A stretch of DNA of 63,785 nt, the filler included, from Nemertoderma westbladi (Eukaryota > Animalia > Xenacoelomorpha): NCBI GenBank assembly GCA_032718475.1. It is 3 parts of 3 records of this genome, joined end to end, with 100 filler letters (N's around TTAATTAATTAA, not from the genome) between each part and the next. Parts side by side here need not be neighbours in the genome. Positions count along the whole stretch, not along the records: positions 29,367 to 47,850 come from JAUCBJ010000034.1; 2 more parts are not named here. The stretch is one strand, 5' to 3'. The notes beneath the pieces are model-generated. The model was not told the origin of the DNA. It ran no database searches and worked only from the letters and a program-made list of their open reading frames with translations. Every line of letters starts with the position of its first letter. Position 1 is the first letter of the stretch. This document shows, piece after piece, positions 16,621 through 62,696 of this stretch. A program made the translations under genes and the position numbers.

Positions 16621-16624
16621 TTGA

Positions 16625-20594: not shown

Positions 20595-20931
20595 CAGTAG
20601 TTTACCACCAATATTTTCTCTGCTTTCGGCGGAATGGCACCAGCTGCCCATCAGGTTGTCAAACGAGTGGCAGTCACCGACTCATCGATCCGGTTGGCTA
20701 ATGCGGACTCAGACCCTGGGGTGTTGGCGCAGTTCGGTAGGGTGGGGTAAATACAGTAGTATGCTCCATACACCGTAGAGACGGTTTCTGTGTTGGGGCA
20801 GGCAAAGGATTTCATTTTAAATTTCCCTCCTACATTGGTTGCCTAGTAACGTTGGCTGGTGGTGGGTATTGGTTAACATTAACGTTTTATTATCTATGTG
20901 AATAAATGAGACTTAAAGAGTAAAAAAAAAA
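20595..20931 (+). mobile_element. 5'-truncated poly(A)-tailed CRE-like non-LTR retrotransposon 3' end, inside the satellite
   Basis: Translates FTTNIFSAFGGMAPAAHQVVKRVA, resembling the FTP..FS..GGM...A....KRLA motif of CRE-type RLE domains; AATAAA and an A-tail at 20922-20931. Confidence 0.6.
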
Positions 20932-21491
20932 CCACCATATACTGTACTGTACCGTAACCATACCGACATACCTCGTACAATAATGTACCATATCGTACTG
21001 AACTGTACCAAACCACCATATACTGTACTGTACCGTACCATACCGACATACCTCGTACAATACTTTACCACATCATACTAAACTACCAAACCACCATATA
21101 CTGTACTGTACCGTACCATACCGACATACCTCGTACAATACTTTACCACATCATACTAAACTGTACCAAACCACCATATACTGTACTGTACCGTAACCAT
21201 ACCGACATACCTCGTACAATATTTTACCATATCGTACTAAACTGTACCAAACCACCATATACTGTACTGTACCGTGACCATACCGACATACCTCGTACAA
21301 TACTTTACCATATCGTACTAAACTGTACCATACCACCATATACCTTACTGTACCGTACCATAACGTAACCATACCGTACCAAACCACCATATACTGTACT
21401 GTACCGTAACTATACCGGCATACTTCGTACAATACTTTACCATATCATACTAAACTGTACCAAACCACCATATATTTTACTGTACCGTACC

Positions 21492-21709
21492 GACTCTGAG
21501 CCGTAGCCTGGTAGTACAGCGCATGCAGTCGTACAGGCCTACAATAGCTGACCAGTAGGCCTACAACATAAACAACCAACTGTTTTGAATTTCCCCCTTA
21601 CATCCGTATCACTGTACCTCATTGTATAAATCAGATTTGGTGATAGGGTGTAATAGTGCAATTTGAAATCCATTGTATCAACTATGTTATTATACTATCA
21701 TTCTCACCC

Positions 21710-21738
<29 letters not shown>
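21492..21738 (+). mobile_element. Poly(A)-tailed retroposed fragment inside the satellite, family unknown
   Basis: Non-satellite sequence ending in a long A-tract, with satellite on both sides. Confidence 0.55.
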
Positions 21739-21741
<3 letters not shown>

Positions 21742-23730
21742 CGTACTATATTGTACCAAACCATAATATACTGTACTGTACCGTAACCGTACCATACCAT
21801 ACCGACATACCTCGTACAATACTTTACCATATCGTACTAAACTGTACCAAACCACCATATACTGTACCGTACCATAACGTAACCATACCATACCAAACCA
21901 CCATATACTGTACTGTACCGTAACCATACCGGCATACTTCGTACAATACTTTACCATACTGTATCATACTAAACTGTACCAAACCACCATATATTGTACT
22001 GTACCGTACCATACCATACCGACATACCTCGTACAATACTTTACCATATCGTACTAAACTGTACCAAACCACCATATACTGTACTGTACCGTACCATACC
22101 GATATACCTCGTACAATACTTTACCACATCGTACTAAACTGTACCAAACCACCATATACTGTACTGTACCGTACCATACCGACATACCTCGTACAATACT
22201 TTACCACATCGTACTAAACTGTACCAAACCACCATATACTGTACTGTACCGTACCATACCATACCGACATACCTCGTACAATACTTTACCATATCGTACT
22301 AAACTGTACCAAACCACCATATACTGTACTGTACCGTACCATAACGTAACCATACCGTACCAAACCACCATATACTGTACCGTACCATACCATACCGACA
22401 TACCTCGTACAATACTTTACCATATCGTACTAAACTGTACCAAACCACCATATACTGTACCGTACCATACCATACCGACATACCTCGTACAATACTTTAC
22501 CACATCGTACTAAACTGTACCAAACCACCATATACTGTACTGTACCGTACCATACCGACATACCTCGTACAATACTTTACCACATCGTACTAAACTGTAC
22601 CAAACCACCATATACTGTACTGTACCGTACCATAACGTAACCATACCGTACCAAACCACCATATACTGTACCGTACCATACCATACCGACATACCTCGTA
22701 CAATACTTTACCATATCGTACTAAACTGTAACAAACCACCATATACTGTACTGTACCGTACCATACCGACATACCTCGTACAATACTTTACCACATCGTA
22801 CTAAACTGTACCAAACCACCATATACTGTACTGTACCATACCATACCGACATACCTCGTACAATACTTTACCATATCGTACTAAACTGTACCAAACCACC
22901 ATATACTGTACTGTACCGTACCATAACGTAACCATACCGTACCAAACCATCATATATACTGTACCGTACCATACCATACCGACATACCTCGTACAATACT
23001 TTACCATATCGTACTAAACTGTACCAAACCACCATATACTGTACCGTACCATACCATACCGACATACCTCGTACAATACTTTACCATATCGTACTAAACT
23101 GTACCAAACCACCATATACTGTACTGTACCGTACCATACCGACATACCTCGTACAATACTTTACCACATCGTACTAAACTGTACCAAACAACCATATACT
23201 GTACTGTACCGTACCATACCGACATACCTCGTACAATACTTTACCACATCGTACTAAACTGTACCAAACCTCCATATACTGTACTGTACCGTACCATACC
23301 ATACCGACATACCTCGTACAATACTTTACCATATCGTACTAAACTGTACCAAACCACCATATACTGTACTGTACCGTACCATAACGTAACCATACCGTAC
23401 CAAACCACCATATACTGTACCGTACCATACCATACCGACATACCTCGTACAATACTTTACCATATCGTACTAAACTGTACCAAACCACCATATATTGTAC
23501 TGTACCGTACCATACCATCCCGACATACCTCGTACAATACTTTACCATATCGTACTAAACTGTACCAAACCACCATATATTGTACTGTACCGTACCATAC
23601 CATACCGACATACCTCGTACAATACTTTACCATATCGTACTAAACTGTACCAAACCACCATATATTGTACTGTACCGTACCATACCATACCGACATAGCT
23701 CGTACAATACTTTACCATATCGTACTAAAC

Positions 23731-24055
23731 TTTTTTTTTTTTTTTTACTCAATAGTCTCCATATATTATAATATTAACAAACAATAATTCGAATATAAAA
23801 ACGCACAAAAACAAGTACAAATATAACCCACCACCAGCTGATTCAAACTGTTACCTAGCAACAATACAAACAATACAAATTGGTTCAGTACCCATCACTA
23901 GTCTGCAAGGCGTTCTTAACTAAAGGCCATGCAACCGTGCAGCACTGAAGGCTGACTGGAGGCTGACCACATTAACTGAATTTTACATCTTGGAGTCCCT
24001 CTTTCATCAATTTAAACCTATGCAGCTGGTTCGTAACAATGGAATATCCATTAAA
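23731..24055 (-). mobile_element. Second CRE-like 3' end with poly(A) tail, related to 20595-20931
   Basis: Poly(T) from 23731; minus-strand 3' UTR shares GCTGGTGGTGGGT and GAGACT...GAGT-poly(A) with the first copy; residual PLLRTSCIGL. Confidence 0.55.
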
Positions 24056-24733: not shown

Positions 24734-25878
24734 CTAGCGAGATTCTGATAATTTTATTTTCTTTTGTGCATTCTCCTTTGTAGATCGTGGAGTTTTTAAT
24801 ATACAATCATTATTTACAAAAATATTAATCAATTTGCGAGTAGATGCGCGAGTTATTTCCAGACAATAGACAGATGACAAATAACAAAAAACGGTTTCTA
24901 GAGATTTTCGGCAAAATTCTGATTTTAAATTTATAAACAACATATAACAATAAAATGTGAATATACAAGTCTTGTCATCTGGTTTCCTTAATCCACCGCG
25001 GTCAAGTCTGTTTAAATATGAGCCATATTTTAAGTAGTATTGTCTATTGTCAGCTGGTATGTCCTCATGAGTTGCACTTATATACCCCGCGATATACACC
25101 AGTGCTTGTTTATTATCATCAGAAATAGAGTCCTCCAGTTCTTCCAAGTTGTCCAGTAATTCGCATTCGTCTTCACTCAATGTAGATGGACAGTTCTCAC
25201 AAACATGTTGTTGATTTCCTTCAACAGTGCTTCCCAATTCTAGCAAAAGTTTGCTAACCAAGATTCTCGACTTTTCCAATGCCTGTTGACAATTAATAAA
25301 GTATGTTCCACCTGATCCTTGACGCAGAACTCCAAACATACTTTCCACATCATCGCTGTTGTGTTCCCCAATCATGACAAAGTCAGCTGTCTCAAGACGT
25401 TTATGGACTAAATCGACAAGACCACGACAGGTATGCGATAAGGCGGTACCAGTATCTTTTGTTAAAGTTCTAAATCTCTCATTGGGTTTCACTGTATTGG
25501 TCATGGAGTCGGCCATATCAGCAATGTCTACCAATGTCTGTAACCGAGGATCGGAATTTAATCGAATAACAGCACGATCTTCGTCTCTTGAACGGATATC
25601 TGCGCCAACTGTGCGAACATTCACAATTCGCCAAAAGAGTATAATTATTTTTAAGAATTCGACAGTTTCTTTCACTTCGTCTTGGTCCACAAGACGAGAA
25701 GACTCGAAGGCCGCAACTGTTTCTACACAGAAAATTCGCAAACATAATCCAACACGCTGTCGTTCGATCAGTTTTGGCCTAACTGCTGCTTCGTTCAATC
25801 TAGAGAGTTTAACTAGTGAGTCCTTCTCCGTTTCATAAAGTTCAACGAGATGTGACCACTTTGCAACTCCAGTTTTAC
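24734..25878 (-). mobile_element. P-element/THAP9-like transposase, intact C-terminal part (about 380 aa), N-terminus replaced by satellite
   Basis: KLSRLNEAAVRPKLIERQRVGLCLRIF, FWRIVNV, SDDVESMFGVLRQGSGG (catalytic Glu region), YIAGYI and LDRGGLRKP fit P-element family C-terminal motifs; no stops. Confidence 0.85.
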
Positions 25879-26173
25879 CAAACTGTACCAAACCACCATA
25901 TACTGTACCTGCTCTGTACTTTACCGTAACCGTACCATACCGACATACCTCGTACAATACTTCACCATATCGTACTAAACTGTACCAAACCACCATATAC
26001 TGTACTGTACCGTAACCATACCGACATACCTCGTACAATACTTTACCATATCGTACTAAACTGTACCAAACCACCATATACTGTACTGTACCGTAACCAT
26101 ACCGACATACCTCGTACAATACTTTACCATATCGTACTAAACTGTACCATACCGACATACCTCGTACAATACT
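25878..26173. repeat. Further copies of the 80-bp pentamer satellite abutting the transposase
   Basis: Same unit as 20301-23730. Confidence 0.92.
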
Positions 26174-26765
26174 TTTGTTCGCGCTTTCAGACCTTTGGCA
26201 GTTTAACCCACCAAATCAAGATGTCTTCTAGATATTAAATCAGTTTTTAGTCTATGACAAGTATTTGATTCACTACACTAGTCGAAACCAATCCGTGCGC
26301 GACCATTCACCCGCTGGAGATTCCCGGGAGATTGGGTTCGACGGTTTAATTTTATTGCTATGTAAGCCTAATGTATTATTCGACTGACAGTATTATATAA
26401 TCTCTGACAATATTATTCACCTTCGGGAATATTAACAGTTCCTTTAGGACGTGGCGCTTTATCTATATAAACAGAGTTATGACTTAAACTACTCACAACG
26501 ATATGGCTTAATTATAATTCACATATATGGCGCATTCTTTAGGAATGCTTCTTTAACAGACTCACTCATACACAATGCTGCACAATACTGCACACTAATC
26601 TGCCGATCTTCACTGATTTTAGTCACATATAAAAGGAACACAGACTGGCTCATGTAGGGTCTATCAAATAACATTAGATTCACTTCAAACCACTTTAACA
26701 TAAGTCACAATCGTTTATCTGTAACCTTTCTCTCTTACCTTCGGTATATCAAGAATATTGGGTTT

Positions 26766-39497: not shown

Positions 39498-39659
39498 CTG
39501 GAAATGCAATTATGGATGGCTTAATACTGCTAAAATGCCGCATAGTAGTTACAAAATATTAATGCGGAAATATTTTATGAAACGTATTTGAAATGCATCC
39601 GGTGACCGTGGCATTCATTACCTTTCCGAAAACATGTTATATTCATGAAATTTGAAACT

Positions 39660-39881
39660 TAGATAATGTTTACAGTACTGTATGTTTTACAGAACTCAAT
39701 TACTGTGGTTATTGTTATGTACCTGTAGGCTTACCACATGTATGACAGTACTAACCTGCACTGCATGTGCACGTATGTGTTATTCATATTCAGACTTTAG
39801 TAATACAACTGTACTAGCGATCATTGCGATTACTCGTAATGACTTATGATAATATTCGCTATTATGCATCATATTTATCTA
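39660..39881 (+). repeat. 5' LTR (222 bp, TAGATAA...TTATCTA)
   Basis: Identical by eye to 45389-45610 except at position 3. Confidence 0.95.
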
Positions 39882-40264
39882 TGATCGCTGTTGTTATTAA
39901 ATTGCTGAACTGTGCACTGTGATGATATATACTGATGCGCCGACTATCAGAAGTAAAGGAAATATACTGGTACACCGATTACCAGTAATCCATCATTGCA
40001 AAGTCGCCTACGCATTACCGGTACACCGATTACCAGTAATCCATCATTGCAAAGTCGCCTACGCATTACCGGTACGCCGATTATCGGGAGGCACTGCCCG
40101 CATTACTAGAACACTACCGGTACACTGTTTATCGGAACGTATTACCGGTACGCCGATTACCGGAAAACGTTATGGTACTAGGCCTACTGCTGTAATAGTA
40201 TGCTGACCAAAGCGCCAATTATTTACAATTAAGCCCTAGGCTGCTAGGCTAATTTTCATTAATT

Positions 40265-43200
40265 ATGGTTCAATTACACTGCACTGCTTTACAAGGGGGC
40301 CAACCATGCCCCTATATGACAGAAGATGTTGCTGCTGAGGTAGCTATACAAATACTTACAATGCATCAAACTAATGTTCACGGTGCAGCTGCTACTGTAG
40401 GGCAACAAGCTGCAATGGGTGGTCCAAAAGCTGAAAAGGTCAAACGACCGATCTTGGAGAGTGGAAATACATTAGAGAAATGGAACTATTTTGTTACCCG
40501 GTGGGAACGATATAAACGATTGACTGCCCTAACTCCAGCTGCGATTAGTGGTCAACTGCTGGAATGCTGCCAAGATGATTTACTTCTAGATTTGCATCGA
40601 AATGTTGGCATTGGACTGGACAACTTAAACGAAAACGATCTCCTGAATGAGATTAAACGCCTAGCCGTTCGTGATGAAAATGTCATTGTTAGTCGAATGC
40701 TGCTAAGAGGAATGCTTCAGGACCATAACGAAGGTATCCGGACGTTTGCAGCATGTGTCAAGGGCCAAGCTGCAGTTTGCCAATATTCTGTGAAATGTAT
40801 GGGTTGTGATATAGATATCTCATATGCTAATGACGAAATAAAAGATCAGATCTGCAAAGGGCTAGGTGACCAGGATATTCGACAAGATTTGCTAGGTGAT
40901 CGAAATCAAACCATGAACCTTGAAGAGGTTATTAAATTCATTGAAGCAAAAGAAGCTGGAAAAAGATCACAGATGGCACTCTCAAACTCTGATGGAATAT
41001 GTAAAATATCGCAATATAAACGTGATAAGAGATTCTCCAAACCAAAGACTAAACACACTGATGAGAAGGTGACAAATGATTCTCCATGTGGGTGGTGTGG
41101 AAAACATGGACATGGATCCAATGGGACCATCGAAAGTCGACGTAAACACTGCCCTGCCTTCCTGGTAGGATGTCGAAAATGTGGTCAGATTGGACATTAT
41201 GACTCAGTATGTCAGGGTCGCCCCAAGATTAAGAAAAAATCACCAGCTAATGCCATTATTGCAGAAGATGAAAGTGATAGTAACACATCTAGTGATGATT
41301 ATGATACAGCATACTCACAGGATATACCCAATGCTAGCTTTATAGGTGGAGTCCACCTAGAATCTACTAAGATGGTAATACTCAATAATGAAAGTGAAGA
41401 ATCTATACATGGAATTGCGATGTCACATAAAGAATACAATGACATCTTAGGTTGGGTGAGCCAACATTCACCAGATAACCCCACAATTAATGTATCTGTC
41501 GATATATGTAAGGATGCATACGCATACTTAAATATTCCACTAACAGGTAAACCAAGATGCATAACCTGTCATGCAATAGCTGATACTGGGGCCCAATCCG
41601 CGGTGGCTGGTATGCGTCTAGTTAAATCTCTTGGTCTAACAAAATCGGATTTGATCCTTGTGACACAGTCTTTGGTAGCAGCCAATGGAACAAAATTAAA
41701 GATTTATGGTGGGTTATTTTTAAAAGTCAATTGTCAGACAAAGCAAGGAGTTTCTAGGAGCACTAAACTACTTGTATATATTCAGGGCAACTGCGACCAA
41801 TTTTTCCTTAGCCGAAAAGCTTGTGAATGTCTAGGAATTATATCGACTGATTTCCCCCAAATAAATTCAATAACTAATCAATGCTTCAACAATGATAGCA
41901 ATAGTGCAATTGCCCCATGTGGCTGTCTTAGACGATCCGCACCACCAATTTCACCCTCAACGCCACCCTTACCCCTGATACCGGAGAATAGAGATGCCAT
42001 AGAGAAATGGTTGTTGAACTACTATGCATCAAGCACCTTTAACATATGTGAGCATCAGGCCTGGCCTACTATATCAGGACCACCACTCAGTCTAATGATT
42101 GATGTAAATGCAAAACCGCACGCTATTCACACACCGATACCTGTTCCTATCCACTGACAGAAGGCTGTCAAGGAAGGACTTGATAGGGATGTTCGTTTGG
42201 GTGTCATTGAGCCAGTCCCTTGGGGGACTCCTACATCCTGGTGCAGTCGGATGGTAACTGTAGCCAAAAAGGATGGTATGCCAAGGAGAACAGTTGATTT
42301 ACAAAACCTAAATGCAGCCTCAGTTCGCCAAACTCACCATACACCATCGCTGTTTCATCAAGCCATGTCTGTACCACATCATACTAAGAAGACAGTGTGT
42401 GATGCATGGAATGGCTATCATAGTGTTGCTATCAAGCCAGAAGATAGATATTTCACAACATTTATCACCCCTTGGGGGCGTTACCAGTATCGAACCACCC
42501 CTCAAGGCTTCATAGCCGCTGGTGATGGCTATACACGCAAGTATGACGAAATTATTACTGATATAAGCAACAAAACGAAATGCGTCGACGATGTATTACT
42601 TTGGTCGAACGATATAAAGCAAAGTTTCCAACAAACGTGTGAGTTTCTATGTCATTGTGCAGATAATGGCATTATACTAAATCCAAACAAATTCCAATTC
42701 GCAAAGAGTGAAGTTGAGTTTGCAGGCTTTGTCATAACAGATGATAGTGTAAAACCAAGCAAGAAATATCTGCAAGCCATTCTAGACTTTCCCACACCAA
42801 CAAATATCACGGGTATACGCTCTTGGTTTGGACTTGTTAATCAGGTATCATATGCGCTTTCCATGACTGATAAAATGCTGCCATTTCGCGAACTGCTGCA
42901 AACTGGAGTAAAATTCTACTGGGATAACCAACTACAAATGCTTTTTGATGAATCCAAACAGACAATCGTGAAAGCAGTAGAAGAAGGTGTCAGAATATTT
43001 GACCCGACTAGAAAGACTTGTCTTACAACAGATTGGTGTAAAATTGGCACAGGATTCTTCCTTACCCAGAAACACTGTACATGCCTAACGACATCACCTG
43101 ACTGTTGCTCCAATGGTTGGAAACTAGTATTTGCAGACTGTAGCAAATTCAATAGCCCAGCTGAATCTAACTATTCTCCAGTAGAAGGAGAAGTGTTGGC

Positions 43201-45325
43201 AGTAGTTAAAGGGTTGAATAAGACCCGATACTTTACTCTGGGTATCTCACACCTGATAGTAGCTACAGATCATAAGCCATTGCTGAAGATCCTTGGTGAT
43301 AAAAATATGGAAGATATAAGCAATCCCCGCTTATTGGCACTAAAAGAAAAAACATTGGGGTATAAATTTACCATTATATATCTACCTGGTAAGACTATAC
43401 GTGGTCCTGATGCGGCATCCCGGTATCCATCAGGTGAGTTACCATCATCTGATACGATTAATCCCATAGTAGCTGAAGTTGCTAATGATGATGATTGTTA
43501 TGAAACTGAATTATCCACAATGACGAGTGCTGTTTGTTCATTGTACTCGTTAGGTACTCTTAAATCTGTTACATGGAATCGTGTCCGTGAAGCCACTATG
43601 AGTGATGATGTAATGTTGGACCTGTTGAAGATAATCCAATGTGGCTTCCCTGATAACCGACATTGTGTACCAGCACATTTATTGGAATACTTTCCCTACC
43701 GCGAGAATCTCTCGACCGTTGACGATAGTGTCATTATCTACAACAACAGAGTAGTCATACCACCATTGCTAAGAACTGAGGTTTTAGAAGCTCTACATTC
43801 AGCACATCAAGGTGTAACATCAATGGTGTCACGTGCTACTGCATGTAATCAAATGGCCCCGTCACAACCCAATCAACCACCAATGCCGATGGTTTACCCA
43901 GAATACCCATTTCAATGCATCTGCGCTGACTATGCTCATATCGAGGTATCAAACTATCTCATCATTATTGATCGATACTCTGGATGGCCCCAAATTAGTA
44001 AAGCAGCCCCAGGAGAAGGTGCGAAACAACTAGTCGGAGAACTAAAGCAACATTGTGCCACATTTGGAATCCCAGAGGAGGCAGCAACAGATGGAGGACC
44101 TGAGTTCCAATCTGCTGAAACTTTAAAATTTATGAAAAACTGGGGAATACAGCACCGATTGTCTTCAGTTGCATTTCCCCATTCCAATACGAGGGCTGAA
44201 ATTGGTGTCAAAACAATGAGGCGTCTCTTAACTGACAATATAGGACCCAATGGAAACCTTAATACAGATAACTTCCTTCGAGCACTACTCCAATATCGAA
44301 ACACACCAGACCAAGACACGAAGATATCACCAGCAGTAGCGATATTTGGGCGACAAATTCGGGACTTCACACCCGTTCTTCCATCGAAATATAAGCCATG
44401 CAAAGAATGGCAAGATACTCTAATATGTCGCGAGGAAGCTCTTTGTAAACGCCATAACATAGCACATGAACGACTAGAAGAACATACACATCGACTTCCA
44501 CCATTAAAAGTTGGTGACCATGTCTATGTTCAAAACCAAGTTGGTAATCACCCCAAGAAATGGGATAGAACAGCATTGGTAGTAGAAGTAAAGCAATTCG
44601 ACCAATACAATGTTCGCATAGATGGATCTGGTAGAATGTCACTCCAAAGTCGTAAATTTCTTCGTAAATTCACGCCCTTTCCAACGAATGATACAAAGCT
44701 GATATCAAATAGCATACCAGTTCCCAAAACTTTATTGCCTGAGAATCATGCAAGAAAAACGATACAACCAACCAATACAGAAAGCCAAACCACCGATCCA
44801 AAAATCGAACCACCTAAACCAGATAATCAAATCAATGATCAACCACCTAAACCAGGTGATCAAACCAATGATCAACCACCTAATAGGGGCAATCAACCAC
44901 TCAAACCACCTATTCCTGGTTATCAAACCAGTGATCATACATTCATTGATCCCCATTCAATTCCAAAGAATCCATCAAGCACAATAACTCTCCCAGAGGA
45001 GATCTCAAGACCTACCTCAGATATTGTCATTACCCCACCGGCACCGCTACCACTAAAAGTGTCCCCTCACAAAACGGGCCGTACCGTAAGTACCACTAGC
45101 AGTCGACCACCAAACGTTGATATTACGTCACCTACGGCTACGATGTCATTGCCACGCCAATCAAATCGGAAGTGCCAGCCTAATACTCGTCTTCGGGATT
45201 ATGAGACTTCTCTTAATGTTGTCAGAGGTAGTCATGGTTTGTCACGAGTTTTCACACGCCAGCGAAGTAAACTTAAAGAGGGTGAAATAAATCACTCAAT
45301 AAATGACTCAGCGAAAACTCTCTAG
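40265..45325 (+). pseudogene. Single-frame gag-pol polyprotein with one in-frame TGA (42155-42157) and an apparent deletion in the integrase zinc finger
   Basis: Gag knuckles CGWCGKHGH...C and CRKCGQIGHYDSVC; protease AIADTGAQS; RT CDAWNGYH, FITPWGRY, KCVDD; RNase H TTDW, YSPVEGE, TDHKPL; integrase CADY, TDGGPEF, SNTRAE. The two listed ORFs are in the same frame and the stop falls where Trp is expected (PVPIH*). Confidence 0.9.
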
Positions 45326-45388
45326 AACTATATCGAAACAACTGTAAACTCATATGTTATCATGTGACTCTTGTTTGGGAGGGGGAGA

Positions 45389-45610
45389 TATATAATGTTT
45401 ACAGTACTGTATGTTTTACAGAACTCAATTACTGTGGTTATTGTTATGTACCTGTAGGCTTACCACATGTATGACAGTACTAACCTGCACTGCATGTGCA
45501 CGTATGTGTTATTCATATTCAGACTTTAGTAATACAACTGTACTAGCGATCATTGCGATTACTCGTAATGACTTATGATAATATTCGCTATTATGCATCA
45601 TATTTATCTA
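45389..45610 (+). repeat. 3' LTR (222 bp)
   Basis: Starts directly after the PPT and is followed by the TSD AAACT. Confidence 0.95.
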
Positions 45611-46570
45611 AAACTGAGATAGTTTGAACACCAGATTTCTTTCTTAGTGGCTGAGACAATTTTTATTGTCGCTTTCTATTTGTAGCTATATAATCGTTTA
45701 AAACCGTGTACGGCAAACGAATATGGCACCGGTCACAGTGGCTGAGCTATTCTTAAAGACGACTAGGGGCCTATGTAAGGATTCCAAATATATAAAAACA
45801 TCTGATTTTGTATAAGAAAAGTGTTGCGATATTGTGGGAAATGTTCCTAAACTATTAATATTATCTGCTACGTAGGTTTATTATAATTTTTTGGGCACAG
45901 CTTTCCAAAGTCGCCAACGACGTCCAGGTGGGATCGAACTGGTGACCTCCGGGTTTGAAGTTGAGGTTAGACCTGGAAATACCCTGATACCTTGTATGTC
46001 CGCAATTTAACTCCTCATGGCCTCCCATCTGTCAATACCATAATCTGCTGCCACTACTGTGCTCAACCCTACTGTACTACTGTAACACCAATTATAAAAT
46101 AATATAATTCTGGTGTACAGTAGTTATGTGTTACAATAGGATATTTGAACTGCTTATATATATTATTTTATTTTTATGCTTACACGCATAGGCCCCTATG
46201 TTGTTGTTAATTTTTCACATTTTATCTCGTTTTTTTTCATGATTTTTTTTTCGTTTCCAATATGTCTTGTACAATAAATCGCCTGGTATGATGTAGGCCT
46301 ACAGCTCTGGGACTCTTATTATTTACATAAACAATCAGCCCCCATTATGTAGGCTGTACAATGTTTTATGGTTCGATTAATATTACGTTTCAACATACAT
46401 GTACTGTAGCTGTGTTGTATAGGCCTACACTGTACAGTAGGCCTATCTTTGCAACAGTACAGTAAACATATAATTGTGGATTATTACTTAGTACATACTT
46501 AGTGCAGTATTAAGTACAGTACTTAGTGGTCTGATCTGTGTTTCTTCTACAGGTAACAGGCCTAACTAAC

Positions 46571-47950: not shown

Positions 47951-49270
47951 CTAATGTTTTTGGTTTGTTTTGTATTAAATCTTATCATCTTACAAAAGGC
48001 AGATTATCAATAAAGACATATAAATTTCGGCAGGTTAAACTGCTGAAGGTCTATAAAAGCGCGTACATAGCATACCTGAACGTTTATCGGGAGACGCGGG
48101 TTCGATCCCCGCTGGTGACGAATTCATTTTTTCCGCTCCATTTGCTATAGAGTTGGATCATCCTTAGTCCTGTTTAAATTACTTAATAATTTAATTGTCT
48201 TTATTCTAGAATATTCATTATTATTTAATATACTATTACAATTAGGGATGTCCCGGAATTCCGGCGGTATTTGCCCGATTGCGGTTCCGACCGGAAATTG
48301 CAGCAATGGGGTCAATTCCGGCCGGAATTTTACCGGAATTACCAATTTGCTAACTACTGTAGTTTAATAGTTGCAATTAATTTGTGAAATTATTATCACA
48401 CATTATGTAAAAACAATAACAATATTATATATACAGTACAGTATGTATAGTATAACAGGTATTGTCCAACATAACATATACAGTAGGATTACTCCTAAAG
48501 CTGCAGCTTATATACTAGGGGTCCTTTATGTCACTATGTTACTGTATTAGGTCCAGCGCCGTTTGCGTTAGGTGCTGCGTAATATCGTAGTTTTATTTCT
48601 ACAGAAAAGCTATTTATTACCATAAATTTATTATTCCCAGTAAAAATTAAACTGTAACATGTACCGTAATATTGCCTCTAGTTTATTGATTTGGTTAGAA
48701 TAACATGTCACTGTAACCTGCTCCTTTCCAATAACGACACCAGGATATTGCACCAAAGCAATTAATATTACATTTTTGGTCAACGTAGGTATTCAAGGTA
48801 TGTGGCCAAAAACCTAACTTTTGGCTAAGGTTATAGGTTTTTGGAAAAATTATGAAATTTAATTCCCTAAACCCTATTTGGCCCGGGGAGGTCTTTTATA
48901 ATTTTTTTTGTAATTCAACTGTATCTTTGAGCCAGGTATGGTAGGAAAACCGATATTTCGTAGCTTTTCTTAAAATTTAATGGGCTATCCACCAGCGCAA
49001 ACGCCAAAACATAGCTTTGTTAGTTTTCGTGCTGTGGTCCCATTCTGGCACTCATCTCCCATATTTTTCGTCTCAAAATATTTTCAAAAGTTTTTATTGC
49101 TCGCTGAAATTAATTTATTTGCGGTATATAGCGTTTATTTTAGATGCTGATCACGAATATAGAACTCAGATATAACATTCGAAAAAATTTCCAGTAATTT
49201 TGAAAGTACCCCCGGGGCACGAAAAAAACAAGTAGTTTAAATATGATAATAAAAATCACCACCAAATCAA

Positions 49271-51090
49271 ATTGATTTTATAATAGGTATTGTCCAACAT
49301 ATTGATTTTATAATATATAGGTATTGTCCAACATATTGATTTTATAATAGGTATTGTCCAACATAATATATAGGATTACTTTAAGTATTAGTATTTGTAT
49401 TAAATTGATTTTATAATAGGTATTGTCCAACATATTGATTTTATAATAGGTATTGTCCAACATATTGATTTTATAATAGGTATTGTCCAACATAACATAT
49501 AGGATTACTTTAAGTATTAGTATTACTGTAGTATTTGTATTAAATTGATTTTATAATAGGTATTGTCCAACATATTGATTTTATAATAGGTATTGTCCAA
49601 CATATTGATTTTATAATAGGTATTGTCCAACATAATATATAGGATTACTTTAAGTATTAGTATTACTGTAGTATTTGTATTAAATTGATTTTATAATAGG
49701 TATTGTCCAACATATTGATTTTATAATAGGTATTGTCCAACATATTGATTTTATAATAGGTATTGTCCAACATATTGATTTTATAATAGGTATTGTCCAA
49801 CATATTGATTTTATAATAGGTATTGTCCAACATATTGATTTTATAATAGGTATTGTCCAACATATTGATTTTATAATAGGTATTGTCCAACATATTGATT
49901 TTATAATAGGTATTGTCCAACATATTGATTTTATAATAGGTATTGTCCAACATATTGATTTTATAATAGGTATTGTCCAACATATTGATTTTATAATAGG
50001 TATTGTCCAACATACAGTAATATATAGGATTACTTTAAGTAGTATTACTGTGGTATTTGTATTAAATTGATTTTATAATAGGTATTGTCCAACATATTGA
50101 TTTTATAATAGGTATTGTCCAACATATTGATTTTATAATAGGTATTGTCCAACATATTGATTTTATAATAGGTATTGTCCAACATAATATATAGGATTAC
50201 TTTAAGTATTAGTATTACTGTAGTATTTGTACTGTATTAAATTGATTTTATAATAGGTATTGTCCAACATATTGATTTTATAATAGGTATTGTCCAACAT
50301 ATTGATTTTATAATAGGTATTGTCCAACATACAGTAATATATAGGATTACTTTAAGTATTAGTATTACTGTGGTATTTGTATTAAATTGATTTTATAATA
50401 GGTATTGTCCAACATATTGATTTTATAATAGGTATTGTCCAACATATTGACTTTATAATAGGTATTGTCCAACATATTGATTTTATAATAGGTATTGTCC
50501 AACATAATATATAGGATTACTTTAAGTATTAGTATTACTGTAGTATTTGTATTAAATTGATTTTATAATAGGTATTGTCCAACATATTGATTTTATAATA
50601 GGTATTGTCCAACATGTTGATTTTATAATAGGTATTGTCCAACATATTGATTTTATAATAGGTATTGTCCAACAAAATATATAGGATTACTTTAAGTATT
50701 AGTATTACTGTAGTATTTGTATTAAATTGATTTTATAATAGGTATTGTCCAACATATTGATTTTATAATAGGTATTGTCCAACATATTGATTTTATAATA
50801 GGTATTATCCAACATATTGATTTTATAATAGGTATTGTCCAACATATTGATTTTATAATAGGTATTGTCCAACATATTGAATTTATAATAGGTATTGTCC
50901 AACATATTGATTTTATAATAGGTATTGTCCAACATACAGTAATATATAGGATTACTTTAAGTATTAGTATTACTGTAGTATTTGTATTAAATTGATTTTA
51001 TAATAGGTATTGTCCAACATATTGATTTTATAATAGGTATTGTCCAACATATTGATTTTATAATAGGTATTGTCCAACATACAGTAATAT
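49271..51090. repeat. AT-rich satellite, 30-bp unit, with a recurring linker of about 50 bp (higher-order repeat)
   Basis: Runs of ATTGATTTTATAATAGGTATTGTCCAACAT (often 3 copies, up to about 11) separated by AATATATAGGATTACTTTAAGTATTAGTATTACTGTAGTATTTGTATTAA. Confidence 0.97.
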
Positions 51091-51094
51091 ATAC

Positions 51095-52070
51095 TTGTCG
51101 ACAAAATTGCGCCGCCACAACTCCCTATCACCCATGACATTTGCTAGATCATCCTCATCTTCAAGACCAGTGTCCTTTAAGATGCGTCTCAAGAAAGTCA
51201 TGGGCTGTCCACCATGCTTATTCACTCCATGAGGCTGCCAAAGTACAAGATTATGCACTGGCTGGTCCTCACGGCGAAAGCAATGCTCCTGCAAAGCGGA
51301 GGCGATTTTGTTCTAGTGTCAAGCTTGGGGGAACCAATGAGACACCTCCAATGTTATATAGTGTCTGGTTGGAGATGTGTGCATTGTACTTGACACAATG
51401 AACCCGGCGTAGCATTCTTGTGAATGTGCCATCCAGAGATTTGGTATCCTCAGCAGTTAGAGCCCAGCATGGACTCCCATAGAGGAGTACTGGAACTACT
51501 GCTGCACTAAATAATCGGACCTTAAGAATTAATTCTCGGTGACTTCCAAATCCTGGAAAGCCTATTCAAGGCTGCCCATGCCTTTCCCTTACGTATTCGA
51601 AGGTCCTCATCTGACTTCCGGATCCATGATCCCAGGTAACAGAAGTCGTCCACATGCTCAAGCATACCATCCTTTGAGCTCATGCTCATCCGATCAGAGA
51701 CTTGCTGAGAACTTTCAAAGTTAACTGTCAAAATTTTGGTCTTTCTGGAGTTAATAAAAAGACCAACACTAGAAGCAGCATGTTCTAATGAGCTGAGGAG
51801 CCGTTGGGCTCCCTCTAGTGATTCTGAGAGTACTCCTAAGTCATCAGCAAAGTCTAGATCAGTTAGGTACTTGGCAGGATTTCCTCGACTCCTGGAGCCA
51901 GTAGGTGGAGTTATCATCACCCCATCATCATTATGATGATCTAAGGACATGCGTAGAACATAGTCAACCACAATAATGAACAAGAATGGTGCAAGTGTGT
52001 CTCCTTGGAGGATGCCCCATAACACTTCAAATGGTTCTGTGTCACCGTCAACAGTAGACACAGATGCTGA
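51095..52070 (-). mobile_element. 5'-truncated RTE-like non-LTR retrotransposon (RT C-terminal half)
   Basis: GILQGDTLAPFLFIIVVDY, DLDFADDL, VGLFINSRKTK, FCYLGS, HCFRREDQPVHNLVLWQP, MGDRELWR; frameshifted. Confidence 0.88.
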
Positions 52071-53277: not shown

Positions 53278-54119
53278 ATGTAAATGATTATTCATTATTT
53301 AGTTCAAGGCTTATATATGATAACCTTATGAGATTGGAAGGCGAAGCGTTTTTAGATGCAGTCGTATTATGTTAGGGAAGTTTTTATATTTCATTACAAA
53401 ACCACATTATATCCACAGACATAAATTGGGGGCGAATTCTTACATTCTTATTTATTTATTGCAGGAAGTAGTCTGGGTAGTTTTCGAGATTTTAGTAGTA
53501 GAGACTACTACTATCCACTACTAGAGACCACCGTAATTATTTTCTTAGGTTACAGTCTGCTGGTCAATGTATCTCACTAGCAATAATGTCACTGGTCCAG
53601 TCTCCGCCTAGACTTTTACACTCCCAGACGTATTTATCTGTCCTTGTTAAAATAACTCTATGTCTGGGCTGGGTATGAGTGACGCGTCAACTAATATAGA
53701 GCCAGACATACGCCCATAACCAATATGGATTGATTTGTATTTAACTCAACTCAAATGTAAAGGGAATTGCCCTAAAATAAAAACTTTCGATCTCAAAAAT
53801 AATGAGTTACAAAACTCCCCAAAGAACCGAAAAGAGCCTAATTTGTTGTGACTTTAAGTTACTGTAAGATGACACGACAAAATGTTATAAAGTTGGACCA
53901 ACTAACACCACAGAATCGAAAACAAACAGGATCCAATGCGGTTGAACTTATATTCTGAAGGGATAATGATTGACACCCTGACTTATAATTTGGCGTTGGT
54001 TATTTTGTGTTCTTTAGATGCGCTTCTATAATGTAAATATCTTAAAATGGAAAACTTTTCTTCGGCCATTAGACCGGGGATTACGCACAAAGTGTGGCGA
54101 CTTATTTGTAGAAAGGGGT

Positions 54120-54218
54120 AACAGTGGTGGGGGGGGGGGGGTGTGCCTGCCCCCCGTCTGGGGTTCGAACCCACGACCCAAGGAAACTGATGCCACTCAC
54201 TACGCCAAAGTAAGGACC
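54120..54218 (-). mobile_element. tRNA-derived SINE head (Pol III A and B boxes)
   Basis: Minus-strand TGGCGTAGTGAG (A box-like) followed by GGTTCGAACCC (B box); no complete cloverleaf. Confidence 0.45.
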
Positions 54219-54289
54219 TAAATTAATTAGTCGATATAACGACAATGAATATCATCTGATTGGTTCCAGCACAGTTACTGTATTAGGGT

Positions 54290-55699
54290 AGGCAACAGCG
54301 CTATTAATGGATGTGGGCAACCCAACCCAGCCAACAGCGCTAGTAATGGATGTGGGCAACCCGACCCAACCAACAGCGCTATTAATGGATGTGGGCAACC
54401 CAACCCAGCCAACAGCGCTAGTAATGGATGTGGGCAACCCAACCTAACCAACAGCGCTATTAATGGATGTGGGCAACCCAACCCAGCCAACAGCGCTAGT
54501 AATGGATGTGGGCAACCCGACCTAACCAACAGCGCTATTAATGGATGTGGGCAACCCAACCCAGCCAACAGCGCTAGTAATGGATGTGGGCAACCCGACC
54601 TAACCAACAGCGCTATTAATGGATGTGGGCAACCCAACCCAGCCAACAGCGCTAGTAATGGATGTGGGCAACCCAACCCAGCCAACAGCGCTATTAATGG
54701 ATGTGGGCAACCCAACCCAGCTAACAGCGGTATTAATGGATGTGGGCAACCCAACCCAACCAACAGCGCTATTAATGGATGTGGGCAACCCAACCCAGCC
54801 AACAGCGCTATTAATGGATGTGGGCAACCCAACCCAGCCAACAGCGCTATTAATGGATGTGGGCAACCCAACCCAGCCAACAGCGCTATTAATGGATGTG
54901 GGCAACCCAACCCAACCAACAGCGCTATTAATGGATGTGGGCAACCCAACCCAGCCAACAGCGCTATTAATGGATGTGGGCAACCCAACCCAGCCAACAG
55001 CGCTATTAATGGATGTGGGCAACCCAACCCAGCCAACAGCGCTATTAATGGATGTGGGCAACCCAACCCAGCCAACAGCGCTATTAATGGATGTGGGCAA
55101 CCCAACCCAGCCAACAGCGCTATTAATGATGTGGGCAACCCAACCCAGCCAACAGCGCTAGTAATGGATGTGGGCAACCCAACCCAGCCAACAGCGCTAT
55201 TAATGGATGTGGGCAACCCAACCCAGCCAACAGCGCTAGCAATGGATGTGGGCAACCCAACCCAACCAACAGCGCTATTAATGGATGTGGGCAACCCAAC
55301 CCAGCCAACAGCGCTATTAATGGACGTGGGCAACCCAACCCAGCCAACAGCGCTATTAATGGATGTGGGCAACCCAACCCAACCAACAGCGCTATTAATG
55401 GATGTGGGCAACCCAACCCAGCCAACAGCGCTATTAATGGATGTGGGCAACCAAACCCAACCAACAGCGCTATTAATGGATGTGGGCAACCCAACCCAAC
55501 CAAGCCAACAGCGCTATTAATGGATGTGGGCAACCCAACCCAACCAACAGCGCTATTAATGGATGTGGGCAACCCAACCCAGCCAACAGCGCTAGTAATG
55601 GATGTGGGCCACCCAACCCAACCAACAGCGCTATTAATGGATGTGGGCAACCCAACCCAGCCAACAGCGCTAGTAATGGATGTGGGCCACCCAACCCAG
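54290..55699. repeat. Tandem repeat, 39-bp unit, about 36 copies
   Basis: Unit CCAACAGCGCTATTAATGGATGTGGGCAACCCAACCCAG. Confidence 0.97.
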
Positions 55700-56959
55700 G
55701 GACCCAGATATGTAGTTGTGAGGTGTTGGACTATCGGCTATTCGAACAAGATGTCATTGAAATGTCATTTTTACCGAAACATATAACAGGAAACTGTCAA
55801 TGACGATTATGCGCAGCTCTGCGGTGGAAGATGATAAATATATATTTAGTATAATATTTGCAGTTGCGATAATTAAAGTTTGTATGTAATGATTAAATAA
55901 ATATTTAATATAATTAAATTTAGGGTGAATATTTAAATAAATAATTAATATAAACTTGTATAAATTGTTTGTGGTTAATTGATATAATATAAGTATAGTC
56001 AGTCAGTATAATGTCATTTATAAATTTATTTTTTAACGGTTTCAAATGTTAAGATAAATTGAGTGCATCATGATTTATCTGCACTGCAAAGATTGCAAAG
56101 ACTGCAAAGATTTATCGCACTCATCTTATTACGTACCGTATAATTTATTTTAAATTCAAAAAATAAAATTTCATACAAATAAATTAGTAACTGTAGAGTA
56201 GTTTAATTTGAGTTGTAAACATAATAACTTGTTATCCATGGGCCTGTAAGTTGGTGATTACGGATCACATACGGAAATACAAATAAGACAGGAATACTAA
56301 TGAAGAATAAAGAATACGCTTGGGCTTTGAGACCCTTAAAATTCCTAACTTCGCCTGCGGTTACAAACAAACTGCCAAGCCCAAGAGACTGCAAGTTAGA
56401 AACATTTAGTATCTGAATCAACAGTTGATTACTGACAAAAATATAACTATGATTTTTGTGATTCGCACAAAAATATAACTGTAACACGTAGTTTTACACT
56501 TTTACACTTTTAGTTTTACAGTTTCACACTTTAGTTTATTGTTTTGGTTAGAATAACGTGCCAATGAACCTGTAATTATCGGTCATTCTGTTTGTTTCAT
56601 TCTTTCTCATTTATCCTACTGTAGCATTCCATTTGTATATAATCTGTATGGGAACGTCTACCGGAAGTACTGTAATTGTGATGGAAGATAAAACGCAAAT
56701 ATTAAGTGGCAAAGCCAAATCAATAATAACTGTTTACCAATCTATCCCAATATGCTGTAATACAATGTTTGCTTACAGTCTGTAAAAATGACGACCGTAG
56801 TTTACTTATTTTTAGAGATGGAATGTGGATAGGTTATGAACTGTCAATCATTTCGAACGATTCCATGTCATTCAACATTTGGAAATGTAATCAACCGAAC
56901 CGTGAAAATTCAGTTTAAATTAGAACCTGAGTGTGAGTGCGAATATACTTCGCGCGTGA

Positions 56960-59525
56960 TTTGTTTCCTGAGTGTGACACAGCACTAACCATTGGTGGGA
57001 CACTACACAATTGTTTGTATCCTGAGTGTGACACAGCACTAACCATTGGTGGGACACTACACAATTGTTTGTTTCCTGAGTGTGACACAGCACTAACCAT
57101 TGGTGGGACACTACACAATTGTTTGTTTCCTGAGTGTGACACAGCGCTAACCATTGGTGGGACACTACACAATTGTTTGTCTTCTGAGTGTGACACAGCA
57201 CTAACCATTGGTGGGACACTACACAATTGTTTGTTTCCTGAGTGTGACACAGCACTAACCATTGGTGGGACACTACACAATTGTTTGTTTCCTGAGTGTG
57301 ACACAGCACTAACCATTAGTGGGACACTACACAATTGTTTGTTTCCTGAGTGTGACACAGCGCAAACCATTGGTGGGACACTACACAATTGTTTGTTTCC
57401 TGAGTGTGACACAGCACTAACCATTGGTGGGACACTACACAATTGTTTGTATCCTGAGTGTGACACAGCACTAACCATTGGTGGGACACTACACAATTGT
57501 TTGTTTCCTGAGTGTGACACAGCACTAACCATTGGTGGGACACTACACAATTGTTTGTTTCCTGAGTGTGACACAGCGCTAACCATTGGTGGGACACTAC
57601 ACAATTGTTTGTCTCCTGAGTGTGACACAGCACTAACCATTGGTGGGACACTACACAATTGTTTGTTTCCTGAGTGTGACACAGCACTAACCATTGGTGG
57701 GACACTACACAATTGTTTGTTTCCTGAGTGTGACACAGCACTAACCATTAGTGGGACACTACACAATTGTTTGTTTCCTGAGTGTGACACAGCGCAAACC
57801 ATTGGTGGGACACTACACAATTGTTTGTTTCCTGAGTGTGACACAGCGCAAACCATTGGTGGGACACTACACAATTATTTGTTTCGTGACACAGCACTAA
57901 CCATTGGTGGGACACTACACAATTGTTTGTTTCCTGAGTGTGACACAGCACTAACCATTAGTGGGACACTACACAATTGTTTGTTTCCTGAGTGTGACAC
58001 AGCGCAAACCATTAGTGGGACACTACACAATTGTTTGTTTCCTGAGTGTGATACAGCGCGAACCATTGGTGGGACACTACACAATTGTTTGTTTCCTGAG
58101 TGTGACACAGCACTAACCATTGGTGGGACACTACACAATTGTTTGTTTCCTGAGTGTGACACAGCGCTAACCATTGGTGGGACACTACACAATTGTTTGT
58201 TTCCTGAGTGTGACACAGCACTAACCATTGGTGGGACACTACACAATTGTTTGTTTCCTGAGTGTGACACAGCGCTAACCATTGGTGGGACACTACACAA
58301 TTGTTTGTTTCCTGAGTGTGACACAGCGCTAACCATTGGTGGGACACTACACAATTGTTTGATTCCTGAGTGTGACACAGCGCAAACCATTGGTGGGACA
58401 CACACAATTGTTTGTTTCCTGAGTGTGACACAGCGCTAACCATTGGTGGGACACTACACAATTGTTTGTTTCCTGAGTGTGACACAGCGCTAACCATTGG
58501 TGGGACACTACACAATTGTTTGGTTCCTGAGTGTGACACAGCACTAACCAAACCATTGGTGGGGACACTACACAATTGTTTGTTTCCTGAGTGTGACACA
58601 GCACTAACCATTGGTGGGACACTACATAATTGTTTGTCTCCTGAGTGTGACACAGCAGTAACCATTGGTAGGACACTACACAATTGTTTGTTTCCTGAGT
58701 GTGACACAGCGCTAACCATTGGTGGGACACTACACAATTGTTTGTTTCCTGAGTGTGACACAGCGCTAACCATTGGTGGGACACTACACAATTGTTTTAT
58801 TCCTGAGTGTGACACAGCGCAAACCATTGGTGGGACACACACAATTGTTTGTTTCCTGAGTGTGACACAGCGCTAACCATTGGTGGGACACTACACAATT
58901 GTTTGTTTCCTGAGTGTGACACAGCGCTAACCATTGGTGGGACACTACACAATTGTTTGGTTCCTGAGTGTGACACAGCACTAACCAAACCATTGGTGGG
59001 GACACTACATAATTGCTTGTCTCCTGAGTGTGACACAGCACTAACCATTGGTAGGACACTACATAATTGTTTGTCTCCTGAGTGTGACACAGCACTAACC
59101 ATTGGTGGGACACTACACAATTGTTTGTTTCCTGAGTGTGACACAGCACTAACCATTGGTGGGACACTACACAATTGTTTGTTTCCTGAGTGTGACACAG
59201 CACTAACCATTGGTGGGACACACACAATTGTTTGTTTCCTGAGTGTGACACAGCGCTAACCATTGGTGGGACACTACACAATTGTTTGTTTCCTGAGTGT
59301 GACACAGCGCTAACCAAACCATTGGTGGGGACACTACACAATTGTTTGTTTCCTGAGTGTGACACAGCACTAACCATTGGTGGGACACTACACAATTGTT
59401 TGTCTCCTGAGTGTGACACAGCGCTAACCATTGGTGGGACACTACACAATTGTTTGTTTCCTGAGTGTGACACAGCGCTAACCAAACCATTGGTGGGGAC
59501 ACTACACAATTGTTTGTTTCCTGAG
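56960..59525. repeat. Tandem repeat, 54-bp unit, about 47 copies
   Basis: Unit TTGTTTGTTTCCTGAGTGTGACACAGCACTAACCATTGGTGGGACACTACACAA; recurrent 2-bp deletion and 6-bp insertion variants. Confidence 0.97.
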
Positions 59526-59741
59526 AATCTGTTTTCTTTACTTATTACTTGATTAGTTTGTTAATTTTATGGCGACTTTAAATAAATTTGATAGTAGTCA
59601 AGATTACGTCACTTAGCAGTATACATTCTGTAGAGCGAAGCTTTAATTTCAATATCTATAAATTATGAGTTGTTATTGTGCCCGCTTTGCCGCTTTATGC
59701 GTTATAAAGTTATTTATAATATGTAAATGTAAATATTTCAT

Positions 59742-61899: not shown

Positions 61900-62696
61900 C
61901 TAGTAATTGGGGCGTGTGAGTTGAACTAAAACATACCTGCACCGGTAGTAGCTAGGTGTACCTGTAGCGGTAGTAGCTAGGTGTACCTTGAGAGTAGCAG
62001 CGCATCTTATAGTCAGTTTGAGAATTGAGACTATCAGCTATCAGAAAGACTCTGCAAACAAGCAGAATCGAAAGTGAAATTAAGGAATACTGCCGCGTAC
62101 CGGTGGTACCTGGTGCTGTTGTGTACTGCCTAATGAATATAACATTTGTTCTTTGTAATACTTTATTAAAATTTACGTCGTTGTGGTCTGGTGACATGTT
62201 CGTTGTGGTTATATATATTTGCTGTTGATCAAAAGAGTTGGCATTGAGTTTAGTCTGTTAAGTGACTGCTGCACGCACTACTTCTAGAAAGTAGTAAATT
62301 ACTATATATCCTGAAATAAATAGTTTAATATATTAAACCAAAAGGTATTCTTTTTGCAGATAAGGGGGTGGCGGAAACTGGACGCAATAAAAATGCATCT
62401 CTCTCCAGGGGAAATTAGACGCAAATAACAGCTGATTACTCTCAAAAATAAAACTGTACCATTGTGTTTAGTTTATTGTTTTGGTTAAAATATTTTGCCA
62501 CTGTAACCTGCTCATTTCCCTAAATTGAGAATTTAACATTGAGGCGGGATATTAATTCTCCAAGATGGGATTTGCGCCCAGTCCCCCCCACCCCCCCCCC
62601 CCCCCCCCCCCTGTCTCTATTTTTGTGTGGGGAGATTTGGTGGAACCTAAATGGGATGTAGGGTGCAGGTTAATGTAGCACTCACACCCAAGGCGT

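What the first reader, a model, noticed from the sequence alone, without database searches (positions are those of the whole stretch)
39801..39899. No tRNA primer site: the PBS position pairs with the element's own LTR (candidate self-priming retrotransposon)
Seen: after the 5' LTR the sequence is TGATCGCTG, not TGG. ATGATCGCT (39881-39889) is the exact complement of AGCGATCAT in the LTR (39816-39824) and can extend by a G-U pair. The next bases, GTTGTTATTA (39890-39899), can pair with TAATACAAC (39801-39809) with one bulge. A rough chance of the 9-mer alone occurring in a 222-bp LTR is 222/4^9, about 1 in 1000. Known: Tf1/sushi-type chromoviruses self-prime by annealing the transcript 5' end to the PBS, followed by RNase H cleavage. 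Inference: this Mag-like element, which shows no chromodomain, may have evolved tRNA-independent priming separately, with a primer ending ...GAUCA right at the LTR edge, possibly linked to its TA termini.
Basis: partly seen in the sequence, partly recalled or inferred. Interest (0 to 1): 0.85.

Follow-up and report, generated by a model that had tools for sequence, protein, structure and literature searches.

The report
Self-priming retrotransposon clade with TA ends
This jumping gene and dozens of its relatives carry, where a host tRNA normally lands, a short sequence that matches their own end-repeat and changes in step with it, so they likely start copying themselves with the front of their own RNA, a trick known from fission yeast that likely arose here separately.

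Summary
The element (39660-45610) is a young Ty3/gypsy copy with 222-nt LTRs, TA..TA ends and a 5-bp target duplication. Its 9-nt LTR complement starts at the LTR's last base (1 of 5000 shuffles) and is shared by other copies of the family.

The feature is clade-wide. In 17 of 20 elements whose ends were set by target duplications, 9-17 nt from the terminal A pair exactly with the element's own LTR. Across 29 families there are 28 different 11-mers, and 2 of 812 cross-family pairs match. The LTR arm usually starts at an initiator-like A (22 of 29 families). Among 32 other gypsy elements, 29 have TGG and none shows this pairing. One close relative (L073) keeps TG..CA ends and a TGG site, which favours a gain separate from Tf1/sushi.

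Tf1-like self-priming is inferred, not shown (about 0.8). The window's own duplex is the clade's weakest, and its distal block is unproven. I found no paper describing this clade. The scan reported what is probably the same clade on other DNA (e1-7857863).

The parts
39655..39659 (+). left target-site duplication (AAACT)
   Evidence: identical to 45611-45615; empty-site contigs in runs X1-X3
39660..39881 (+). 5' LTR, 222 nt, TA..TA ends
   Evidence: one mismatch to the 3' LTR
39799..39799 (+). candidate transcription start (A of TTTAGT); alternatives are 39816 and 39792; inferred
   Evidence: relatives' arms start at an initiator-like A; a related cDNA contig has TTCAGTAATAC at the matching place
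39801..39809 (+). possible distal extension of the primer duplex, pairing with 39890-39899; unproven
   Evidence: 29 of 3000 shuffles; none of 28 other families reached p<=0.05
39816..39824 (+). core of the predicted self-primer (AGCGATCAT)
39881..39889 (+). LTR terminal A plus primer-binding position (ATGATCGCT), no TGG
   Evidence: unchanged in family contigs
40253..45325 (+). single gag-pol frame (gag with CX2CX4HX4C, protease, RT, RNase H, integrase; no chromodomain). This copy is broken by a stop at 42155-42157 and is about 60 nt shorter near 43839 than a contig of run X2.
45377..45388 (+). polypurine tract directly against the 3' LTR
45389..45610 (+). 3' LTR; a related family's cDNA contig ends in poly(A) at its last base
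45611..45615 (+). right target-site duplication (AAACT)

Best explanation
This is a young copy of a widespread clade of chromodomain-less Ty3/gypsy retrotransposons with TA..TA ends, whose primer-binding position is complementary to their own LTR and which likely prime reverse transcription with the 5' end of their own RNA instead of a tRNA. Shown: the complement starts at the LTR's last base, is 9-18 nt long, lies 36-73 nt upstream in the LTR and changes sequence together with the primer site. Inferred steps: (1) transcription starts at the initiator-like A at the head of the LTR arm; (2) the first 9-18 nt fold back onto the primer site; (3) the element's RNase H cuts the RNA at the end of the arm, as in Tf1, freeing a primer that usually ends in CA(U) and pairs with TG where a tRNA's CCA would pair with TGG; (4) RT copies the loop into minus-strand strong-stop DNA, which jumps to the 3' repeat. 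The trait was likely gained inside a tRNA-primed, Mag-like lineage, separately from Tf1/sushi. The window's family has the shortest perfect core (9 bp) and may add a bulged distal block.
For: Target-duplication-defined elements: 17 of 20 have a 9-17 nt exact complement from the terminal A. Unanchored search for the longest perfect inverted repeat upstream of RT: 54 of 76 loci reach 11 bp or more, against 4 of 76 control stretches inside pol; in 52 of the 54 the downstream arm begins AT. 29 families give 28 distinct 11-mers, and cross-family pairing of 9 nt or more occurs in 2 of 812. YYANW lies at the arm start in 22 of 29 families (control mean 9.2; 0 of 2000 draws) and the duplex dominates the predicted fold in 28 of 29. 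Other gypsy elements from host contigs in the same assemblies: TGG in 29 of 32, no such complement. Tree: 31 TA-end rows form a clade (SH-aLRT 99); with L073 and L146 they form a 33-row clade (100) whose neighbours carry TGG. L073 has TG..CA ends and a TGG site. A cDNA contig of a related family is polyadenylated at the LTR end, so the repeat would cover the loop needed for strand transfer. Precedent: Tf1, Tf2, Tj1 (PMC4600332, PMC5341516, PMC10085805, passages).
Against: There is no RNA 5'-end, cleavage or strong-stop data. In the window's own sequence the core duplex has predicted probability 0.08-0.54 over 12 start/end choices and lies 0.4-2.3 kcal/mol above the best fold. The window's arm start (39816) has no YYANW. 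Tf1's two flanking 'pretzel' duplexes were not found (1 of 29 families each). A U5 hairpin is present in only 11 of 29 families and not in the window. L073 and L146 are unresolved at the base (AU p 0.31), so one gain, two gains, or gain plus reversion all remain open. L073 is one circular contig without a target duplication, and its tRNA match was not confirmed by a tool. 14 loci showed no duplex in the re-search; not all were checked by hand for a missing junction.
Confidence: 0.8

Rival explanations
1. The duplex is real and selected, but serves another role, such as hiding 3'-end signals in the 5' LTR, packaging or dimerisation. Priming uses some other primer.
For: AATAAA/ATTAAA lies inside the loop in 7 of 29 families. 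No cleavage is shown, and the Tf1 flanking duplexes are absent.
Against: The downstream arm is fixed at the LTR's terminal base, exactly where priming must start, and replaces TGG. The upstream arm begins at an initiator-like A. No other primer site is visible.
Confidence: 0.09
2. The same arm is the primer but is supplied in trans, from the 5' end of the co-packaged second genome or from the copy in the 3' repeat (45545-45553), rather than by fold-back.
For: The arm is present in both LTRs. The cis fold of the window's copy is marginal.
Against: The narrow loop range (36-73 nt) and the high predicted cis pairing in 28 of 29 families fit fold-back.
Confidence: 0.07
3. Priming uses an internal tRNA fragment (as in copia, Osser or Bianca half-tRNA priming), and the LTR match is secondary.
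For: Half-tRNA priming exists without TGG (PMC6317226, passages). No host tRNA set could be compared.
Against: 28 different 11-mers in 29 families, each matching only its own LTR, cannot all track conserved tRNAs. No Rfam match at 39600-40400.
Confidence: 0.03
4. The match is chance, or TGA is a copy-specific mutation of TGG.
For: Only 9 perfect pairs in this copy, in an AT-rich LTR.
Against: 1 of 5000 shuffles; unchanged in high-depth family contigs; same geometry across the clade.
Confidence: 0.01

Closest known systems
Tf1/Tf2 of Schizosaccharomyces pombe, Tj1, Tosmo and the Tf1/sushi chromovirus group (PMC4600332, PMC5341516, PMC10085805; passages read)
   Same: Ty3/gypsy element with no tRNA site; the sequence just after the 5' LTR is complementary to an LTR segment; predicted fold-back, RNase H cut and self-primer.
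   Different: No chromodomain found here. Ends are TA..TA, whereas those 5' LTRs always end in CA. The three-duplex pretzel was not found. Nearest relatives are TGG-type elements. Cleavage is shown for Tf1 and only inferred here.
Tcn1 (gypsy) and TAR/Houba/Osr-1 (copia) plant lineages (PMC6317226; passages read)
   Same: Self-priming predicted from sequence for a whole lineage; TAR is a precedent for a separate origin.
   Different: Other hosts and other clades; Tcn1 belongs with Tf1/sushi and TAR is copia.
Mag lineage of Ty3/gypsy (A, B and C clades, SURL; MolGy3 and MolGy11 near it) (PMC6238403, PMC8556966, PMC3601003, PMC8220671; passages read)
   Same: Short element, single gag-pol frame, no env or chromodomain, marine invertebrate hosts among named homologs, 'K02A2.6-like' cluster name, gag zinc-knuckle pattern recalled as Mag-type.
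   Different: Mag A and Mag C LTR ends are TGT..ACA (PMC3601003, Table 3). The mollusc and annelid surveys have no occurrence of 'PBS'. This clade may already carry a MolGy, PolGy, LGF or Repbase name that I could not match.

Membership tests
Ty3/gypsy LTR retrotransposon | LTRs, target duplication, polypurine tract, order PR-RT-RH-IN | tested here: met
   best PDB match Ty3 Gag-Pol, E 3e-37
Tf1-type self-priming (works like) | primer site next to the 5' LTR is complementary to own LTR, not TGG | tested here: met
Tf1-type self-priming (works like) | the complementary segment is the transcript's 5' end | tested here: inconclusive
   initiator-like motif at the arm start in 22 of 29 families; no 5'-end reads
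Tf1-type self-priming (works like) | RNase H cleavage releases the primer | not testable with these tools
   RNase H domain present; known for Tf1 from the title of Levin 1996 and passages of PMC5341516
Tf1/sushi group (membership) | three-duplex pretzel structure | tested here: not met
   flanking duplexes significant in 1 of 29 families each; a weak U5 hairpin in 11 of 29
Tf1/sushi group (membership) | chromodomain at the integrase C-terminus | tested here: not met
   no PF00385 in the window's protein, in 5 of 5 full-length homologs scanned, or in the precomputed lists of 120 homologs
Tf1/sushi group (membership) | TG..CA LTR ends | tested here: not met
   5' TA in 20 of 20; 3' TA in 19 of 20, GA in 1
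Tf1/sushi group (membership) | RT clusters with Tf1/sushi | not testable with these tools
   no reference sequence could be loaded; nearest neighbours in my sample are TGG-type elements
Mag lineage (membership) | RT/RH clusters with Mag, SURL, CFG1, Gulliver | not testable with these tools
   no named references; motif searches of two papers' supplements and of the library found nothing
Mag lineage (membership) | TGT..ACA ends and tRNA primer site | tested here: not met
   met by L073 and the sister elements, not by the TA clade

The most novel reading that the evidence does not exclude
One marine-animal gypsy lineage both dropped the tRNA primer and moved its integrase cut two bases inward. 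Today's TA..TA ends are positions 3-4 of the ancestral ends (L073: TG-TAGA...TCTA-CA; clade: TAGA...TCTA), and L146 still has TG between its purine tract and a TAGA start that its 5' LTR lacks. The primer would then end two or three bases short of the LTR edge, and integrase would trim a dinucleotide after TA instead of joining at CA. Living tRNA-primed, intermediate and fully switched members would make the origin of self-priming traceable step by step.
Probability: 0.3. Interest if true: 0.78.

Novelty: new variant of a known kind. Interest (0 to 1): 0.62.

Why it matters
In the papers I could search, self-priming in Ty3/gypsy is tied to the Tf1/sushi chromoviruses. A large chromodomain-less clade that appears to do the same, with a tRNA-primed close relative, suggests that the switch from tRNA to self-primer is repeatable and can be studied on a tree. 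The clade offers 29 natural compensatory variants of primer and site. It also breaks the near-universal CA rule at integrase ends. Pipelines that demand TG..CA ends and a tRNA site would miss or mis-bound these elements.

Tried and rejected
No whole genome is held for the window, so there was no host tRNA set and no direct copy count. The run search listed no RNA holder; X4 and X6 laid nothing. Two protein scans of viral contigs found no relatives. Searches of 151 and 63 further MAGs found no new clade member.

No tRNA gene was found in the window or in any fetched locus. Pattern searches for a tRNA matching L073's site gave 0 of 5 genomes and 86 viral matches, none a tRNA. Its reading as tRNA-Ser is recalled.

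The idea that L073 already pairs its 5' end with the leader behind the tRNA site is not in its best fold and was dropped. The pretzel duplexes were not found, and RNAalifold gave no consensus U5 structure. The distal block is not general.

The careful IQ-TREE search did not finish; trees are FastTree or quick ML with SH-type support only. In one search, L146 was labelled tRNA-type before I had seen its sequence; it has the self-complement. L095 has no LTR data, so its 'tRNA' label is unsupported. A Chromo search of five MAGs gave hits in one; they were not followed up.

Naming the clade by motif failed. Three supplement files of PMC8556966 and one of PMC6238403 were not searched; Repbase, GyDB and subscription journals were out of reach.

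Full report
THE ELEMENT. Window 39660-45610 is an LTR retrotransposon. Its 222-nt LTRs (39660-39881, 45389-45610) differ at one base, begin and end with TA, and are flanked by AAACT on both sides. Contigs of three runs hold the empty site, which confirms these ends and shows that the insertion is polymorphic. One frame, 40253-45325, encodes gag, protease, RT, RNase H and integrase; the best solved relative is Ty3 Gag-Pol. This copy is broken by a stop at 42155-42157 and is about 60 nt shorter in the integrase region than a contig of run X2. No chromodomain was found. The host is probably an animal; I did not identify it.

THE OBSERVATION. The 9-nt complement is there, starts on the LTR's last base, and occurs in 1 of 5000 dinucleotide shuffles. 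It is a family trait: an X1 contig across 39660-39998 at depth 218, against 23 for the flank contig, differs only at 39937. The distal block is weaker (29 of 3000 shuffles) and has no counterpart in 28 other families. On its own the window's duplex is marginal: predicted probability 0.08-0.54 over 12 start/end choices.

RELATIVES, THREE TESTS. I fetched 80 metagenome loci (the best of 538 confirmed) and 17 from genome contigs. The latter are probably host contigs inside symbiont MAGs. First, I took the 20 elements, of 30 LTR pairs, whose ends could be set by a 5-bp target duplication (18 exact, 2 with one mismatch). All start with TA; 19 end in TA and 1 in GA. In 17 of 20, the terminal A plus the following bases match the own LTR exactly for 9-17 nt. 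The misses are a deleted junction (L010), one substitution (L015) and a mis-set boundary (L071, 14 nt). Second, an unanchored search for the longest perfect inverted repeat upstream of RT gave 11 bp or more in 54 of 76 loci, against 4 of 76 control stretches in pol; 22 loci were too short to test. In 52 of the 54 the downstream arm begins AT. Third, an anchored search kept 52 loci (23 without a hit, 23 too short), which fall into 29 families at 85% RT identity. The first nine pairs are given by the selection, but lengths reach 18, there are 28 distinct 11-mers, and swapping primer sites between families gives 9 nt or more in 2 of 812, both from one pair that shares its site. Re-searching the 23 misses found 11-17 nt duplexes in 6, one-mismatch duplexes in 2, a canonical element in 1 (L073) and nothing in 14. 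L050's duplex is split over its contig ends and L010 and L060 have deletions; I did not inspect all the rest.

WHERE THE ARM LIES. The LTR arm ends 36-73 nt before the LTR end. It starts at or within three bases of a YYANW initiator-like motif in 22 of 29 families (control mean 9.2; 0 of 2000 draws), often TCAGTT, and the duplex has predicted probability above 0.5 in 28 of 29. The initiator reading of that motif is from my own knowledge. This is what a primer made of the transcript's first bases predicts. The window's core lacks the motif at 39816. A related contig has TTCAGTAATAC where the window has TTTAGTAATAC, pointing to A39799 and a longer, bulged primer; this is a guess. Run X5, listed as 'DNA?', has a loose end that I recall as a cDNA template-switch adaptor. 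It holds a family roughly 80-85% alike, and one contig ends in poly(A) at the LTR's last base. That is one contig, and priming on an A-rich flank is not excluded.

CONTRAST AND ORIGIN. From host contigs of the same MAGs I took 40 more regions. Of 32 other gypsy elements with LTR pairs, 29 have TGG within 8 nt of the LTR and none has a 9-nt complement at the junction (one, L126, has 9 nt starting 3 bases inside the LTR). Two of the three without TGG have it further on because the LTR alignment stopped early; L117 is unresolved. In a quick ML tree of RT-RH-IN, 31 TA-end rows form a clade (SH-aLRT 99) with the window's element deepest. With L073 and L146 they form a 33-row clade (100) next to TGG-type elements. 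L073 has TG..CA ends and a TGG site like that of outgroups L108, L112 and L129. L146 has an 11-nt self-complement, a TAGA start, a CA right end and no target duplication. Their order is unresolved (AU p 0.31). A gain inside a tRNA-primed lineage is the simplest reading, but no Tf1/sushi or Mag reference was in the tree.

TA ENDS. L073 reads TG-TAGA...TCTA-CA where the clade reads TAGA...TCTA (or TTTA). L146 has TG between its purine tract and the 3' LTR that its 5' LTR lacks. The TA ends therefore look like ancestral positions 3-4, as if the integrase cut had moved two bases inward. This is inference from two contigs. Self-priming does not require TA ends, since Tf1-type 5' LTRs end in CA (PMC10085805).

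MECHANISM. Shown: position, length, covariation, loss of TGG, and phylogenetic clustering. Inferred by analogy with Tf1: start site, fold-back, RNase H cut, strong-stop synthesis. Differences from Tf1: the pretzel's flanking duplexes were not found (1 of 29 families each); a short hairpin just before the primer site occurs in 11 of 29 families (half-swap null 6 of 1000, shuffle null 0 of 1000) but not in the window.

LITERATURE. I read passages of PMC6317226 (self-priming in Tf1/sushi, Tcn1, TAR), PMC10085805, PMC4600332, PMC5341516 and PMC11042837 (Tf1-type mechanism), PMC3601003 (Mag ends TGT..ACA), PMC5006619, PMC6934838, PMC8220671 (lists a TATA end motif among tubeworm elements without comment on priming in the passages seen), PMC6238403 and PMC8556966 (no occurrence of 'PBS'). 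The Levin and Lin papers were seen only as reference titles. Ten library searches (listings read) showed no paper on self-priming in a Mag-like or TA-ended animal clade. Repbase, GyDB, subscription journals and four supplement files were not seen, so a prior description is possible. The scan's notes list a 'self-priming retrotransposon clade in marine animals' (e1-7857863), probably this clade, and self-priming candidates in BEL/Pao and copia. These are unchecked notes and add no evidence.

VERDICT. The feature is real and clade-wide. Likely Tf1-like self-priming (0.8), likely of separate origin. New variant of a known kind; interest 0.62.

Noticed in passing
window 39968-40071: A 51-nt tandem duplication in the leader; a contig of run X2 has one unit fewer.
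   Followed up: partly
L010, about 2500 nt upstream of RT: A second 14-bp inverted repeat with the same AT-anchored signature lies upstream of the element's own 5' LTR, perhaps a neighbouring or non-autonomous relative.
   Followed up: no
L117 (G002:C30:9700-24900): Outgroup gypsy element whose detected repeat has neither TG..CA ends nor TGG after it; boundary or priming unresolved.
   Followed up: no
L111, L132, L137: Short gypsy elements with TG..TA ends and a normal TGG site, so a TA right end can occur with tRNA-type priming.
   Followed up: no
G001-G008 (GTDB MAGs): Several symbiont MAGs contain many eukaryotic retrotransposon contigs (for example 151 RT matches in G001), which points to host contamination of these genome records.
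   Followed up: partly
window 24734-26215 (-): 493-aa frame with a weak match to a P-element-like transposase GTP-binding domain (E 0.006).
   Followed up: no
window 51525-52070 (-) and 2115-2615 (+): An RT fragment (E 2e-10) and a weak endonuclease-family match, probably LINE remnants.
   Followed up: no
window 13200-23800, 48400-51200, 54100-59600, 62600-63450: Many minisatellite arrays (units of 24-86 nt) surround the element.
   Followed up: no
run X5, laid at window 40571: A run guessed as DNA carries what I recall as a cDNA adaptor and a poly(A) end, so it is probably RNA-derived.
   Followed up: partly
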